From Escherichia coli (GTDB lineage Bacteria > Pseudomonadota > Gammaproteobacteria > Enterobacterales > Enterobacteriaceae), in assembly GCF_003790525.1 (NCBI RefSeq), contig NZ_CP033635.1: a DNA stretch of 64,000 nucleotides. The stretch is one strand, 5' to 3'. The position numbers are program-made. Shown one piece after another: positions 36,001-45,000 of this stretch (position 1 is the first letter of the stretch; each line of letters starts with the position of its first letter).

Positions 36001-39000
36001 ATTATAATCAAGTAGTTAACAGTAATAACAAAAAATAATTTCCTGAGAAATTAACTCTGCATTCTAAAACGGCCAGTTTTCTGAAATTACCAGAAGACCG
36101 AATACATTCATGCCTGAAGAATGGATTAGAAGAAACGAGACGGAAATAGATCTATTTATCCCTGCGGAAATAATTTCTGCTGAAATTGTTTGCGGCTATT
36201 AAAAAGGTCAAACCGTCTGAGTAAATTTTATCCAGTTACAAACAAGTATTACCTCCAGTGTATTGGTAGCTGTTAAGCCAGGGGCGGTAGCATACCTGAA
36301 GAGAATAGGGTCACATCATCAAATGGCAAGAAGTGGATTTGAAGTCCAGAAAGTCACCGTAGAGGCATTATTTCTACGAGAAATACGAACACGCTTTGGT
36401 AAGTTCCGTCTGGGATATCTGTGGGCGATTCTCGAACCCTCTGCGCATTTGCTGATACTGTTGGGCATTTTTGGTTACATTATGCACCGCACGATGCCAG
36501 ACATCTCATTCCCGGTGTTTTTACTTAATGGCCTGATTCCCTTTTTTATCTTTAGCAGTATCAGCAATCGTTCTGTAGGTGCTATTGAAGCGAATCAGGG
36601 GCTGTTTAATTATCGACCAGTAAAACCCATCGATACGATCATTGCGCGTGCATTGCTTGAGACACTGATTTACGTTGCTGTTTATATATTGCTTATGCTT
36701 ATCGTCTGGATGGCAGGCGAATATTTCGAAATAACAAACTTTTTACAACTTGTGCTTACCTGGAGTTTGTTAATCATTCTTTCATGTGGCGTTGGCTTAA
36801 TATTCATGGTCGTTGGTAAAACCTTCCCTGAAATGCAAAAGGTCCTGCCGATACTGCTTAAGCCGCTGTATTTCATCTCCTGCATCATGTTCCCTCTACA
36901 CTCGATTCCGAAGCAATACTGGTCATATCTACTCTGGAATCCATTAGTGCATGTCGTAGAGTTAAGCCGCGAGGCAGTTATGCCTGGCTATATCAGCGAA
37001 GGCGTGAGTCTGAATTACCTGGCAATGTTTACATTGATAACTCTGTTCATTGGTCTGGCGTTATACCGAACTCGTGAGGAGGCAATGCTGACATCATGAT
37101 TACTTATCACTAGTATAAAACAGGAACAACATCATAGAAACATCAAAAAAACAAAAGTATATATCTATTGTATTAAAACTTTAAAATCAGGCTGAATAAT
37201 GTTAACAGCTATAATTCCGATAGATCTGAAGCGTAGACCTAAAGATATAATTAGAAAAGCAATAAATATTGCTGAGGCAACAAAAAATAATAATATAAAA
37301 GTTATATTTGGTCATGGGAATCGTTTCACTACATATGATCGCACCTTTACAAGATTGTTAAATGGGTATGAGAATGTCCATGTAAAATCATGCGATAATT
37401 TTTCTAAGGCCATAAATGCATCTCTATTAAGAAATCAGGCGTTTAAATCAGTTGAAAGTGAATATGTTATATTACTGGATGTGGATATATACCCTGATTT
37501 TAATTTATTTGAAAAGTATAAAGAGAAAATAAAATCTGGCATAAAGCCGTTTTATATTTTGCCATGCCTATATTTAACAAAATACGGGACAAGTATATTA
37601 AATGATAGAAAGGCTTCAATTGAATCATTAAAAAAAAAGTACTTTGCGTTTTCTAGGAAAGAGTTTTTGCATTTAGCCAGCCCTTCTTCTATTACAATAT
37701 TAAAATCAGCTGATTATGAAACACTTCATGGTTTTGATGAGAGTTTTCGAGGTCATGGCTATGAAGATTTTGATTTCTTGGTGCGCTTGTATAACCATTA
37801 TTTTATACCTAAAGTAAAGGCTGATTTTTTGGCCGATAGGCCATGTCATTCTCCATTGTTTGTCACAGGGTTTAGACGATACTTAGGCGAATACTGTTTA
37901 GATATTTTATTGCATAAAGACTTTGCGTTTCATTTATACCATAATAAAAACAGGAATGAAGATTATTATATAGCTAGAACTGAAAATTATCATATATTCA
38001 AACAGAAGCACAAAAAAAATATAAGCAATGAACGATATTACGATTCAACGTTGCTTATGTTATTTATTAAACACTGCATTGATAAGGGGGAGGACATTCG
38101 AAATTATAGCATATATTTCGATAATAAACCTGGACATATAGACCGTTACGATACGTTACGACGAAGAATTAAATTTTTGCTAAATCAATAAATTTTAGTG
38201 AAGGTGTGTTGTGAAAATTAAAAAGATCAAAAAACTTTTTAAAAATCCCAAATCATTTATTGCGGACTCTCGTTATTTTAATTTTATAAATAGTAAAAAA
38301 AAAGTTGATAATAAATTAGAAATAGGATTTATTGTAATTTCTCAGAACCATGATTTATCAAGATACTCAATAGATAGTATAATACAGGCAAACAATGCAG
38401 CATCAAAATCTTTCCCTTATATCGTTATACATGACTACGATGAAAAATGTGGTACTGACACTATACATACTATAGTTAAAAAACTTGATACACCATACAT
38501 AAAAATCCTCTTTGATGGAGAAAAAATACACAGGGATTTTATTATTAAATTTTCAAATCACAATATAGATCCTAACAATAATGATATAATATTACATGCA
38601 TTTTCTACAAATTCAAATGTAAAACAGGTAGATGGTTTATTATCTAGTTCTAAAGATATATCATTCAATAATCAGTTGTGGAAAGAACATGCGGTTTTGT
38701 TATTTTCTACGCTAATAATTAAATCTGACTTAATATTAAATACTAGCAAAATACTTCATCACGGTGGAAGAATTATAGATGCGCTAAATGTGCTTCGTAT
38801 TTTTAGAGAATGTGAGGAAATGGACTATGTTTTATATTTGAATGATATGTATTCTTTCAATAGTGCCTCGCTGAAACTGGAGGAAAAGATAAAAGTATTG
38901 ATGGAGGATGAGTTATTATTAAAAATAACATTTGCAGAAATCTTTGAACATGTAAGCTTGGGGGGGAGGAATGTTTTTTATAGGAAGACGTTGTTTTATT

Positions 39001-42000: not shown

Positions 42001-45000
42001 ATCAAAATCAAGCATTTGGATAAATAAAAAGACTGGGTTATTTATCAATAAATTTCTATAATAGCGTAAAATATTAATTAAATTTTTTCCTGATCTATAA
42101 AAATGAAATAATGTTTATGATTACAATTGAAAATCTAACAAAGTCATACAGAACGCCACTCGGACGACACTATATATTTAAAGATTTAAATATTGCATTT
42201 CCATCAGATAAAAGCATAGCCCTCTTAGGGCGAAATGGTGCAGGTAAGTCAACTCTTTTAAGAGTTATTGGAGGCATTGATAGACCAGATAAAGGTACTG
42301 TAATTACGGACAAAACAATTTCTTGGCCTGTTGGATTGTCTGGAGGTTTTCAGGGGAGTTTAACTGGGCGAGAAAATGTCAAGTTTGTTGCTCGATTATA
42401 CTCAAAAGCAAATGAATTAAAAAATAAAATTGAGTTTGTAGAAGAGTTTTCTGAATTAGGGAAATATTTTGATATGCCAATCAAAACCTACTCATCAGGG
42501 ATGAGATCACGGCTTGGTTTTGGTCTAAGCATGGCATTTAATTTTGATTATTATCTTGTTGATGAAATTACTGCAGTTGGTGATGCTAGATTTAAAGAAA
42601 AATGTGCTAAACTTTTTAAAGCAAAGCATTCTGAATCTAATTTCATTATGGTTTCACATAGCTTGCATTCCTTAAAAGAGTTTTGTGATGTTGCTATATA
42701 TTTAGGTAGAAACAACATGGTTTACTATTTTGATGATGTTGATTATGCGATTAAACAATATTTGATTGATGAAAAAATAAATCCACGGTCAAATTAAATT
42801 GATATATGATAAAACCTTTAAATTTAAAAGAAATGACCGCATTTTAAATCTGGTTTAGTGTTTTTTCAAAAATGTGATAGACGGTTATGCTTTTTCACCT
42901 CATTAAAATACTTTCTGATATATTTATGGATATTTCTAATGCCTGCTTGTTAAACATAAATCCTACTTTTCTATGATATAGTATCTTATTATGTAAATTT
43001 ATCTTTGGAAATCATAATGGCGCATAACTTTTCTTCAGTACTCGAAAATCATAACGAAGATATCAACATCTGCATCTCTAAATTTGATATTAACATTGAT
43101 AATTATTCCGTATTTACTCCTAAGGAGTTGAATATAAAAGGTGATGATAGTAATAAGGTTTATATAAAAGGTAATAAGCTTCCTGTAGGTATTGAAATAA
43201 TATTTACAGATAAAGCAAAAAAATGTAACGTTTTCATCGATGAAAACATTAAAGCTAAAGCTAGTAAAATATCATTAAAAAATGAAAATAACTTTCTTTA
43301 TCTTGGCCGAAATTGCACACTGAATAATATTGGAGCAGTTATTTTAGGTCGTAATGATTTTATAATTGTTGGTGAGAGTGTTTCGGTAACAGCTCATAAT
43401 ACTTGGAGCACCGGTTTTAATTCAGGAAAAGATAATAATGGACTTATTATAGGAGATCATTGTCTTATCGCATCTGAAATTATAATCCGCCCAGGTGACG
43501 GACATCTTGTAATTGATACCAATACTGGTCAACAATTAAATGTTTCACATAAACCTATAGTAATCGAGCCTTATTGCTGGATTGCTCAAAGAGCTGCAAT
43601 TTTAAAAAATGTACGTATAGGTGCATGTTCAATAATTTCCTTGGGAGCTGTAGTTACAAAATCATGTAACCGGTTTAGCCTTCTTTCTGGAGTACCTGCG
43701 AAAGCTGTGCCTCTAGGAGGCAAAATGTGGTTAAGAGGTCCTGGTAAAGAAGCAAAAGCTATCCAACAATATTATAAGGATAAGTTTAGTTGCCCGGCAT
43801 CTAATACAGAATTAGTTATCCAGAAACAAGAACAAAGTAATCTGAAAGGGACGATATCAGATTCATTAATGAACTGGGAGTTTATACGCACTACACAGAT
43901 TATCAATCGAATTGTCTCTGTTGATAACCCTGATTTTGGTCTGGCTGTAAAATATTATTTGGATCTAGGATATTTAGATGCAGCGTTCTCGTTGTTAGAT
44001 GATTTTGAGAGAAAACACGGATGTTGTATAAAAAATTATCCTGGGAATCATATTGAAAACTGGAGCTCAGTAATATATTGCTCACGTCTTAAAGACAGAA
44101 TTAGAATAAATTCTAAATTAAACAGCACAACACCTTTTTTTACTCAAATGCTCGTGTGTTGTGTGAGGAATGAGTTGGATGAGGTATTTGTATCATTAAA
44201 AAAACTCTGGAATCATATTATAAGCAAAGATATCGATGCCGAATCGAATATGATTCTTAGCTATGCCGTTCTGAAACTTATTGACCACTGTAAACTTGAT
44301 GATGAACTTGGTATAAAAATATCTTTACATTTACACTCGGCAAAAAACATCAATATTTATAGACGTCGACATTTGCTTAAAGAACTAATTGTTTATTTTT
44401 CATCCATTAATAATACAAGCTTTTTTTCATTACCTAAAGCATTTACTAACCATTTGCATAAAATATCAAATACACTTCAATCTTATAGTAACCGAGAAGT
44501 TGGTGCAAAATATCTTAATAAAATATTTATAGAGAATATTAGAACCAACAACAACTTCTCAATAAAAAGATATGCAAGATGTCCAAAGCGTACAGCAATT
44601 TGTGTCTCTGGTATGATGAAAATTGATGATTCAGCCATGCGCTCATTATATCAAAAAATCGCAGAACCATTAAATGCTGATATATTTTTGCATACATGGG
44701 ATAAGATCCAAGTTTGGAGCGGAGAGGCTCGTAAGTCTGGATTTTGGCAACGGCAATTCAAACTTCCTGATAATAAAATACCTCATCCATTAAGAGACAT
44801 TGATAAATTTAAAGAGAAATTCCCTCGTACAGGTAATTTGCTTCTAAGTACAATTACTGATGATATTAATGTTCACTTTTCCGCTACACACCCTTTAATA
44901 AAAATGAGTGTCATTGAAAATGAAGATGTCGCTCTTCATAATTGGTTAAATAATAAATCATTTATGAGCAGGGGGAACTATAATCAGTTTAAAATGTATT

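What the first reader, a model, noticed from the sequence alone, without database searches (positions are those of the whole stretch)
36323..42797. kpsM and kpsT separated by about 5 kb of AT-rich serotype genes (glycosyltransferase plus TagF-like polymerase)
In the canonical group 2 capsule locus kpsM and kpsT are adjacent and region 2 lies between kpsT and kpsS. Here kpsM (36323-37099) is followed by a GT-A glycosyltransferase and a 1244-aa TagF-like polymerase before kpsT (42111-42797), and a second block of serotype genes follows kpsT. The polymerase genes are therefore embedded inside the region 3 transporter operon and should be co-transcribed with kpsMT from the ops-containing leader. 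I do not recall this arrangement being standard.
Basis: seen in the sequence. Interest (0 to 1): 0.7.

Follow-up and report, generated by a model that had tools for sequence, protein, structure and literature searches.

The report
Known E. coli K52 capsule locus
This is the ordinary gene cluster for the E. coli K52 capsule, in which the transporter gene kpsT sits 5 kb downstream of kpsM behind two capsule-synthesis genes; the order is unusual next to the textbook K1/K5 layout but is standard for this serotype and already catalogued.

Summary
kpsM (36323-37099) is followed by a GT-A glycosyltransferase (37199-38191), a 1244-aa TagF-like polymerase (38211-41945), kpsT (most likely 42117-42797), then four more serotype genes. 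All lie on the + strand in a block of 28-33% GC.

The arrangement is not new. Gene order, ORF sizes and domain coordinates match the K52 reference cluster of the kTYPr catalogue (PMC13171606). [quoted passage not shown] The 13.5-kb block is colinear in 39 of 5,426 complete E. coli genomes, including ST69 O15:H18. The reference-length polymerase is indexed in about 3,000 assembly blocks, and the order was the same in every contig read.

kpsM is the canonical allele (97-100% aa). Homology to canonical loci stops 3 nt past its stop codon and resumes inside kpsS. KpsT is a genuine but divergent allele (75-81% aa). K7-type loci also split kpsM from kpsT at the same point. Relatives carrying the same GT-polymerase cassette keep kpsM and kpsT adjacent.

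A JUMPstart/ops leader is present and no intergenic terminator is predicted, so co-transcription is plausible. However, RfaH-dependent readthrough from the region 3 promoter into region 2 is already the norm in group 2 loci.

Verdict: real, already known, low interest.

The parts
36256..36294 (+). JUMPstart RNA element containing the ops site (GGCGGTAG, 36283-36290), 33 nt upstream of kpsM
   Evidence: Rfam RF01707, 53.6 bits against gathering score 35. Exact ops match. The leader 35267-36322 is 95-99% identical to canonical group 2 loci.
36323..37099 (+). kpsM, canonical group 2 ABC-transporter permease
   Evidence: 97-100% aa identity to KpsM of the K2, K7-type, K116-like and PEC403 loci. 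Nucleotide homology to canonical loci runs to 37102.
37096..37113 (+). Vestigial kpsT start. The ATG overlapping the kpsM stop, plus ATGATTA(C), is retained as a 5-codon ORF (MITYH*). The same 8-mer ATGATTAC opens the relocated kpsT.
   Evidence: Read directly from the sequences. The statistical support is weak, and spacer alignments were not above shuffled controls.
37199..38191 (+). 330-aa GT-A glycosyltransferase (K52_13 in kTYPr numbering)
   Evidence: Pfam PF10111, E=2.8e-23. Always paired with the polymerase in E. coli K116-like, Enterobacter, Citrobacter, Aeromonas and metagenome loci. 71% aa identity to the GT next to kpsM in the K7-type locus.
38211..41945 (+). 1244-aa multidomain TagF-like capsule polymerase (K52_12): N-terminal GT-A-like domain, TagF-like domain at residues 464-821, and a poorly conserved C-terminal region
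   Evidence: PF04464, E=7e-41. TarL 8va1 hit. AlphaFold model of residues 1-470 has pLDDT 83.6, and Foldseek matches RmlT, TarS and TarP at E=6e-9 to 4e-6. 99% identical to the 1248-aa ST69 version, with a 4-aa indel.
42117..42797 (+). kpsT, ABC-transporter ATPase; a divergent low-GC allele (ORF opens at 42111)
   Evidence: 75-81% aa identity to KpsT of the K2, K7-type, K116-like, PEC403, Enterobacter, Citrobacter and two metagenome loci, and 53% to Aeromonas. GC 0.326. It is the only ABC ATPase gene in the locus.
43017..45506 (+). 829-aa protein with an N-terminal hexapeptide acyltransferase domain (K52_10; ORF opens at TTG 43005)
   Evidence: NCBIfam acetyltransferase hits at residues 143-236. 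RefSeq calls it an acyltransferase. 69% aa identity to the genes that directly follow the polymerase in Citrobacter and Aeromonas.
45544..46290 (+). 248-aa BcbE-like nucleotidyltransferase-fold protein (K52_9)
   Evidence: Weak NCBIfam nucleotidyltransferase hits. PIRSF BcbE and cd04183 assignments in the kTYPr supplement.
46271..46642 (+). 123-aa HAD capsule-biosynthesis phosphatase (K52_8)
   Evidence: TIGR01689 EcbF-BcbF, 200 bits against cutoff 162.
46639..48216 (+). 525-aa protein (K52_7), GT-A-like plus kinase-like
   Evidence: No NCBIfam hit. Superfamily assignments in the kTYPr supplement. phrog_24015, E=2e-106.
48435..49544 (-). IS3-family transposase pseudogene between region 2 and kpsS
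   Evidence: RefSeq annotation of the identical genome and of the ST69 genome.
49790..57734 (-). Region 1 plus kpsCS: kpsS, kpsC, kpsU, kpsD, kpsE, kpsF, followed by tRNA-Phe
   Evidence: ORFs. RefSeq annotation. Homology to canonical loci resumes at 49852-49856, inside the 3' end of kpsS.

Best explanation
The region is the group 2 (2A) kps locus of E. coli serotype K52, at its usual site between the gsp type II secretion genes and tRNA-Phe. kpsM is the conserved allele. Everything from 3 nt past its stop codon to the last codons of kpsS (37103 to about 49855) is a K52-specific, AT-rich block, and that block includes kpsT.

Inferred mechanism. One long transcript starts at the conserved region 3 promoter. 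RfaH is recruited at the ops/JUMPstart leader and carries transcription through kpsM, the GT, the polymerase, kpsT and the four downstream genes.

Inferred enzymology. The TagF-like domain of the polymerase builds the phosphodiester-linked backbone. From memory of Hofmann et al. 1985, K52 is a galactose-phosphate polymer carrying fructofuranose and O-acyl groups. The GT, the acyltransferase and the BcbE/HAD/525-aa genes would then supply the glycosyl and acyl decorations. KpsM and KpsT form the exporter that works with KpsE and KpsD.

Inferred history. The cassette's ancestral order is kpsM-kpsT-GT-polymerase-acyltransferase. In the K52 lineage kpsT came to lie between the polymerase and the acyltransferase. 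The event is old enough that no scar is detectable beyond the retained kpsT start at the end of kpsM.
For: Identity as K52:
- The kTYPr K52 reference lists K52_7 (525 aa), _8 (123 aa, TIGR01689 residues 1-121), _9 (248 aa), _10 (829 aa), no _11, _12 (1248 aa, TagF-like), _13 (330 aa) and no _14.
- Read from kpsS, that is the window's order and sizes if the unlisted slots 11 and 14 are kpsT and kpsM.
- The window is 99.2% identical over 13.5 kb to ST69 O15:H18 genomes.
- ST69 O15:H18 isolates are typed K52/KL52 in PMC13171598, whose KL52 reference is CU928163.

Invariance: 39 complete genomes are colinear. The 1248-aa polymerase is indexed in 3,026 blocks, and all contigs read have the same order.

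Boundaries: homology ends at 37102 and resumes at 49852-49856.

kpsT is genuine: 75-81% aa identity to KpsT of enterobacterial loci. K1 and K5 KpsT are themselves only 72.7% identical.

Ancestral order: six other carriers of the GT-polymerase pair have kpsM and kpsT adjacent. In Citrobacter and Aeromonas the roughly 830-aa gene directly follows the polymerase.

Operon: JUMPstart/ops is present, and no intergenic + strand terminator is predicted. Readthrough from the region 3 promoter via RfaH is established for group 2 loci (PMC8960920).

TagF-like domains can transfer hexose-phosphate as well as glycerol-phosphate (PMC5974469).
Against: - No direct sequence alignment to the serotyped K52 reference assemblies (GCA_977947195, CU928163) was possible. 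The K52 assignment rests on ORF sizes, domain coordinates and typed ST69 relatives.
- The window is a variant: 99.2% nt identity and a 4-aa deletion in the polymerase. It is found at 100% identity only in three canine isolates, and their serotype is untested.
- Co-transcription, RfaH dependence and all enzyme roles are inferred, not shown.
- The 171-nt and 219-nt AT-rich gaps flanking kpsT could hold internal promoters.
- The N-terminal GT-A-like domain of the polymerase lacks a conserved DxD motif in the family alignment, so its activity is uncertain.
- The K52 repeat-unit structure is quoted from memory. Only the citation was seen.
Confidence: 0.9

Rival explanations
1. The gene at 42117-42797 is not KpsT. 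It would be a TagH-like teichoic-acid exporter ATPase imported together with the TagF-like polymerase, so the locus would have lost its true kpsT or would use a hybrid exporter.
For: The top NCBIfam hits are the TagH-type models NF010065 and NF010066 at 122-126 bits. The gene also sits in the low-GC imported block.
Against: Those hits are far below their cutoffs of 320-538 bits, and no KpsT model appeared among the hits shown. The protein is 75-81% identical over its full length to KpsT of enterobacterial kps loci. That lies within the normal spread of KpsT, since K1 and K5 are 72.7% identical. kTYPr counts K52 as having kpsT.
Confidence: 0.03
2. The split is a recent insertion. A mobile 5-kb GT-polymerase segment would have inserted 8 nt into an adjacent kpsT, duplicating ATGATTAC as a target-site-like repeat.
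For: The 8-mer ATGATTAC occurs at the end of kpsM and at the start of kpsT, bracketing 37108-42116.
Against: - Seven of the eight bases are the conserved kpsM-stop/kpsT-start overlap present in every locus.
- No IS ends or transposase flank the segment.
- Spacer similarity tests do not exceed shuffled controls.
- In Citrobacter and Aeromonas the GT, polymerase and roughly 830-aa gene are contiguous, so kpsT is the element out of place, not GT-polymerase.
- K7-type loci break at the same base with a GT gene only 74% nt identical, which argues for an old junction.
Confidence: 0.07
3. The order is an assembly or scaffolding artefact of this one genome.
For: None found.
Against: The block is colinear in a single alignment piece in 37 of the 39 complete genomes, which come from many laboratories and hosts; the other two carry an insertion. 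The order is the same in all contigs read out of 3,026 indexed blocks.
Confidence: 0

Closest known systems
E. coli K52 kps reference cluster (kTYPr K52; Kaptive KL52, reference CU928163)
   Same: Same gene content, order and ORF sizes, reading kpsS-525-123-248-829-kpsT-1248-330-kpsM. Same chromosomal site. 99.2% nt identity to ST69 K52-type genomes.
   Different: The window variant has a 12-nt deletion in the polymerase (1244 rather than 1248 aa) and about 0.8% nt divergence. It is identical only to three canine urinary isolates from Thailand.
E. coli K7-type kps loci (HM670, MS6198; assigned to K7/K106 here from their wecB/wecC content and the kTYPr K7_13/K106_13 GT)
   Same: kpsM and kpsT are also separated. 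Homology to canonical loci breaks at the same base after ATGATTA. A homologous 330-aa GT (71% aa, 74% nt) sits next to kpsM behind a spacer of about 100 nt.
   Different: All of region 2 (CgeB, wecB, wecC, a large GT, DUF6270) lies between kpsM and kpsT, and kpsT abuts kpsS. There is no TagF-like polymerase. In HM670 the GT is split into two ORFs.
E. coli K116-like locus (GN02461) and the Citrobacter, Enterobacter and metagenome kps loci carrying the same GT-polymerase cassette
   Same: Homologous GT (51-63% aa) and polymerase (38-48% aa). K116-like and Citrobacter also have a homologous acyltransferase (69-70% aa). All are Kps ABC-transporter-dependent systems.
   Different: kpsM and kpsT are adjacent and overlapping, which is the canonical order. 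The BcbE/HAD/525-aa genes are absent.
TagF-like capsule polymerases (Litschko et al. 2018, PMC5974469), such as CslB, Cps1B and Cps7D
   Same: Multidomain enzyme combining a GT-A-like domain with a TagF-like phosphotransferase domain, encoded in a group 2-type capsule locus.
   Different: No detectable sequence similarity outside the TagF-like domain was tested against those enzymes. It is only 26% identical to the E. coli K2 polymerase, and only over part of the TagF-like domain. Substrates are untested.
Atypical group 2 loci such as KL112 (PMC13171598; bioRxiv 10.64898/2025.12.15.689991)
   Same: Another documented departure from the canonical kpsMT position. There, kpsM and kpsT were shown by RNA-seq to be expressed despite the rearrangement.
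   Different: In KL112, kpsMT stay together, are inverted, and lose the region 3 promoter and ops, with region 2 outside the conserved regions. Here the promoter region and ops are intact and only kpsT is displaced. KL52 is not flagged as atypical order in that dataset.

Membership tests
E. coli group 2 (2A) kps capsule locus | Region 1 genes kpsFEDUCS present and conserved | tested here: met
   ORFs 49790-57734 on the - strand, annotated KpsS/C/U(KdsB)/D/E/F in identical and near-identical genomes. 94-97% nt identity to canonical loci from 49852 onward.
E. coli group 2 (2A) kps capsule locus | kpsM and kpsT ABC transporter genes present | tested here: met
   KpsM is 97-100% and KpsT 75-80% identical to reference E. 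coli alleles.
E. coli group 2 (2A) kps capsule locus | kpsM and kpsT adjacent as a two-gene region 3 (the textbook definition) | tested here: not met
   5,017 nt and two genes separate them. The current catalogue does not require adjacency for group 2A and cites K52 as an exception.
E. coli group 2 (2A) kps capsule locus | Region 3 leader with JUMPstart/ops upstream of kpsM | tested here: met
   RF01707 at 53.6 bits and ops at 36283-36290. The leader is 95-99% identical to canonical loci.
E. coli group 2 (2A) kps capsule locus | Chromosomal site near tRNA-Phe (pheV), next to the gsp cluster | tested here: met
   gspD-M/yghD lie upstream and tRNA-Phe lies beyond kpsF in the identical genome.
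K52 K-type (kTYPr K52 / Kaptive KL52) | Full set of K52-specific genes | tested here: met
   Six K-specific ORFs match in size and domain coordinates: 525, 123, 248, 829, 1248 (1244 here) and 330 aa. 99.2% nt identity to ST69 O15:H18 genomes, a lineage typed K52/KL52. No direct alignment to the reference assembly was possible.
K52 K-type (kTYPr K52 / Kaptive KL52) | Production of K52 antigen (serology or polymer structure) | not testable with these tools
   Needs K52 antiserum or NMR on the strain.
TagF-like capsule polymerase | TagF-like (PF04464) phosphotransferase domain | tested here: met
   PF04464 E=7e-41 at residues 464-821. A family profile hits TarL 8va1 at E=1.4e-9.
TagF-like capsule polymerase | Adjacent GT-A or GT-B glycosyltransferase domain in the same polypeptide | tested here: inconclusive
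   The model of residues 1-470 (pLDDT 83.6) matches the GT-A teichoic-acid glycosyltransferases RmlT, TarS and TarP at E=6e-9 to 4e-6. No conserved DxD motif appears in the family alignment.
TagF-like capsule polymerase | Polymerase activity forming phosphodiester-linked capsule polymer | not testable with these tools
   Requires an in vitro assay with nucleotide-activated donors.

The most novel reading that the evidence does not exclude
The displaced kpsT could be a functional design rather than a neutral rearrangement. With the exporter ATPase placed behind 5 kb of AT-rich polymerase genes, KpsT synthesis would depend on RfaH-assisted readthrough. The transporter would then be completed only when the polymerase genes have been transcribed. 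This coupling might contribute to the behaviour of K52, which was ranked highest for invasive potential in PMC13171598. Nothing here tests this. The same split recurs in K7-type loci, and one natural strain carries an IS1 between the polymerase and kpsT.
Probability: 0.07. Interest if true: 0.45.

Novelty: already known. Interest (0 to 1): 0.12.

Why it matters
K52 is clinically important. [quoted passage not shown] Correct annotation of its locus therefore matters for typing and vaccine work. The gene order itself adds nothing new. It is the catalogued K52 architecture, and co-transcription of biosynthesis genes with kpsM from the region 3 promoter is already the accepted model for group 2 capsules. 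One practical point remains: RefSeq labels these genes only generically (ABC transporter permease, ABC transporter ATP-binding protein), so a reader without a K-locus database can easily take the locus for something novel.

Tried and rejected
1. Recombination scars. I aligned the kpsM-GT spacers of K52 and the K7-type locus against kpsT genes and kpsT-GT junctions from five loci, with 300 shuffles each. No alignment exceeded the shuffled controls. The 12-nt kpsT-like string in the K7-type spacer and the 8-mer ATGATTAC repeat in K52 are therefore only suggestive.

2. A donor for the K52 kpsT allele. It is roughly equidistant (75-81% aa) from the E. coli, Citrobacter, Enterobacter and metagenome alleles, and 53% from Aeromonas. 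No donor could be identified.

3. A group 3 or hybrid locus. I first suspected this because NCBIfam's KpsM model scored only 189 bits against a cutoff of 300. I rejected it because KpsM is 97-100% identical to canonical group 2 KpsM and region 1 is the group 2 kpsFEDUCS set.

4. Misassembly: rejected.

5. Locating the KL52 reference strain (CU928163) in the complete-genome collection. It was not among the 39 full-length hits, so no direct comparison was made.

I repeated it on residues 1-1200.

7. A taxonomy lookup for an O15:K52 name failed on syntax.

8. A PHROGs scan gave only families of unknown function.

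
Full report
**Observation**

The ORF map shows eight + strand genes after the gsp type II secretion cluster:
- kpsM, 36323-37099
- a 330-aa gene, 37199-38191
- a 1244-aa gene, 38211-41945
- an ABC ATPase ORF, 42111-42797
- an 833-aa ORF, 43005-45506
- a 248-aa gene, 45544-46290
- a 123-aa gene, 46271-46642
- a 525-aa gene, 46639-48216

These are followed on the - strand by kpsS, C, U, D, E and F (49790-57734). GC falls from 0.54-0.58 in gsp to 0.28-0.33 across 37-48 kb.

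Pfam assigns the 330-aa protein to PF10111, a GT-A family (E=2.8e-23). It finds a PF04464 TagF-type domain at residues 464-821 of the large protein (E=7e-41). The only PDB sequence relative of that protein is the TarL ribitol-phosphate polymerase.

The ATPase is 77% identical over its full length to CFT073 KpsT, with the ABC ATPase motifs aligned and conserved. That alignment and the RefSeq annotation both place its start at 42117. KpsM is 98% identical to CFT073 KpsM.

kpsM and kpsT are separated by 5,017 nt holding a GT-A gene and a TagF-like polymerase gene, and more serotype genes follow kpsT.

**What the locus is**

Megablast against 5,426 complete E. coli genomes finds the whole 13.5-kb block in 39 of them, colinear in all (two of them interrupted by an insertion). 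It is 100% identical in three canine urinary isolates and 99.2% identical in human isolates, including an O15:H18 ST69 strain.

Two 2026 papers catalogue transporter-dependent K loci.

In the kTYPr catalogue (PMC13171606), the K52 reference cluster has these K-specific ORFs:
- K52_7, 525 aa
- K52_8, 123 aa, TIGR01689 at residues 1-121
- K52_9, 248 aa, BcbE-like
- K52_10, 829 aa, hexapeptide acyltransferase
- K52_12, 1248 aa, TagF-like
- K52_13, 330 aa

Numbers 11 and 14 are missing from the K-specific list. Counted from kpsS, this is exactly the window's order and sizes if slot 11 is kpsT and slot 14 is kpsM. [quoted passage not shown])".

In the Kaptive-based study (PMC13171598), ST69 O15:H18 isolates are typed K52/KL52. 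The KL52 reference is CU928163, and KL52 is not flagged as atypical order.

The reference-length 1248-aa polymerase is indexed in 3,026 blocks of public assemblies. Every contig read shows kpsM-GT-polymerase-kpsT-829-248-123-525.

That criterion is met.

**Anatomy of the junctions**

Homology to canonical group 2 loci (K2 CFT073, PEC403, K116-like GN02461) runs at 95-99% from the gsp/kps intergenic region through kpsM. It stops at 37102, three bases past the kpsM stop. It resumes at 49852-49856, inside the 3' end of kpsS. The K52-specific block therefore spans about 12.75 kb and contains kpsT.

At the left junction the canonical ATGA overlap survives. The sequence reads ...CATCATGATTACTTATCACTAG, so the old kpsT start codon now opens a 5-codon ORF. 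The relocated kpsT begins ATGATTACAATT. The shared 8-mer is mostly the conserved overlap, and alignments of the spacers to kpsT sequences were no better than shuffled controls. I do not count it as a demonstrated scar.

KpsT of K52 is 76-79% identical to the KpsT of the K2, K7-type, K116-like and PEC403 loci, and has lower GC (0.326). This is within the normal range, because K1 and K5 KpsT are 72.7% identical.

**Comparison with relatives**

The GT-polymerase pair is a conserved cassette. These loci all carry kpsM-kpsT-GT-polymerase-X with kpsM and kpsT adjacent:
- E. coli GN02461 (K116-like)
- Enterobacter sp. NFR05
- a Citrobacter genome
- two metagenome contigs

Aeromonas bivalvium has kpsD-M-T-E, a nucleotidyltransferase gene, then GT-polymerase-831aa. 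In Citrobacter and Aeromonas the roughly 830-aa gene (69% aa identity to the K52 acyltransferase) directly follows the polymerase. Relative to these, kpsT is the displaced element in K52.

K7-type loci (HM670, MS6198) also split kpsM from kpsT. There, kpsM is followed after a spacer of about 100 nt by a homologous GT (74% nt, 71% aa), then the K7 genes, with kpsT next to kpsS. The break with canonical sequence falls at the same base.

About 94 of roughly 1,500-1,700 complete genomes with group 2 kpsM have this GT next to kpsM rather than kpsT. That is 42 of K52 type and 52 of K7 type, of which I inspected two.

**How it most likely works**

A JUMPstart element (RF01707, 53.6 bits) containing ops lies 33 nt upstream of kpsM. 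The leader is 95-99% identical to canonical loci. No + strand terminator-like site falls in any intergenic gap from 37.1 to 48.2 kb.

[quoted passage not shown] Co-transcription of the polymerase with kpsM is therefore likely here, but it is an inference. It is also not a departure from the norm. The only change is that kpsT is the fourth gene of the transcript rather than the second, and has lost its translational coupling to kpsM.

The polymerase is multidomain. An AlphaFold model of residues 1-470 (pLDDT 83.6) matches the GT-A teichoic-acid glycosyltransferases RmlT, TarS and TarP (E=6e-9 to 4e-6). This domain is followed by the TagF-like domain and a poorly conserved C-terminal region.

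TagF-like capsule polymerases are reported to transfer hexose-phosphate as well as glycerol-phosphate (PMC5974469). That fits a glycosyl-phosphate polymer. The K52 repeat unit (galactose phosphate with fructofuranose and O-acyl groups, Hofmann et al. 1985) is quoted from my memory. Only the citation was seen. The roles of the individual enzymes are inferred.

**Verdict**

The feature is real and correctly described. It is the standard, published architecture of the K52 capsule locus, and a similar split occurs in K7-type loci. Novelty: already known. Interest: low.

Noticed in passing
window 49137-49279 (+): Full-length match to the Rfam isrN Hfq-binding sRNA family (RF01396, 123.7 bits against gathering score 44). 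It lies inside the IS3-family transposase pseudogene between region 2 and kpsS.
   Followed up: no
window 48435-49544 (-): A frameshifted IS3-family transposase remnant sits at the region 2/kpsS boundary. It is conserved in the K52-type genomes examined.
   Followed up: partly
window about 41841 (polymerase residue 1210/1211): A 12-nt indel. The common K52 allele has a tandem KQNV-KQNE repeat (1248 aa), while the window and three canine isolates lack one copy (1244 aa).
   Followed up: yes
L014 9747-10696 (= NZ_CP076301.1 strain Survcare321; also H104, and H21/H22): An IS1 element is inserted between the polymerase and kpsT in at least one natural K52-type strain. This is a ready-made test of whether kpsT depends on upstream transcription.
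   Followed up: no
L004 15934-16900 (HM670, K7-type) compared with L006 11025-12017 (MS6198): The GT next to kpsM in K7-type loci is intact in MS6198 but split into two ORFs in HM670. It may be a dispensable relic of a K52/K116-like ancestor.
   Followed up: partly
window 36323-37099: NCBIfam's KpsM equivalog model NF050053 scores only 189 bits (cutoff 300) on a KpsM that is 97-100% identical to canonical E. coli KpsM. RefSeq therefore labels kpsM and kpsT only generically.
   Followed up: partly
window 46639-48216: The 525-aa protein (GT-A-like plus kinase-like) matches a phage protein family of unknown function end to end (phrog_24015, E=2e-106). The BcbE-like protein matches phrog_3980 (E=3e-44).
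   Followed up: no
window 38211-39000 (polymerase residues 1-260): The N-terminal GT-A-like domain of the polymerase family has no conserved DxD motif. The invariant residues are Y96, K98 and G103 instead, so it may be non-catalytic or use an unusual motif.
   Followed up: partly
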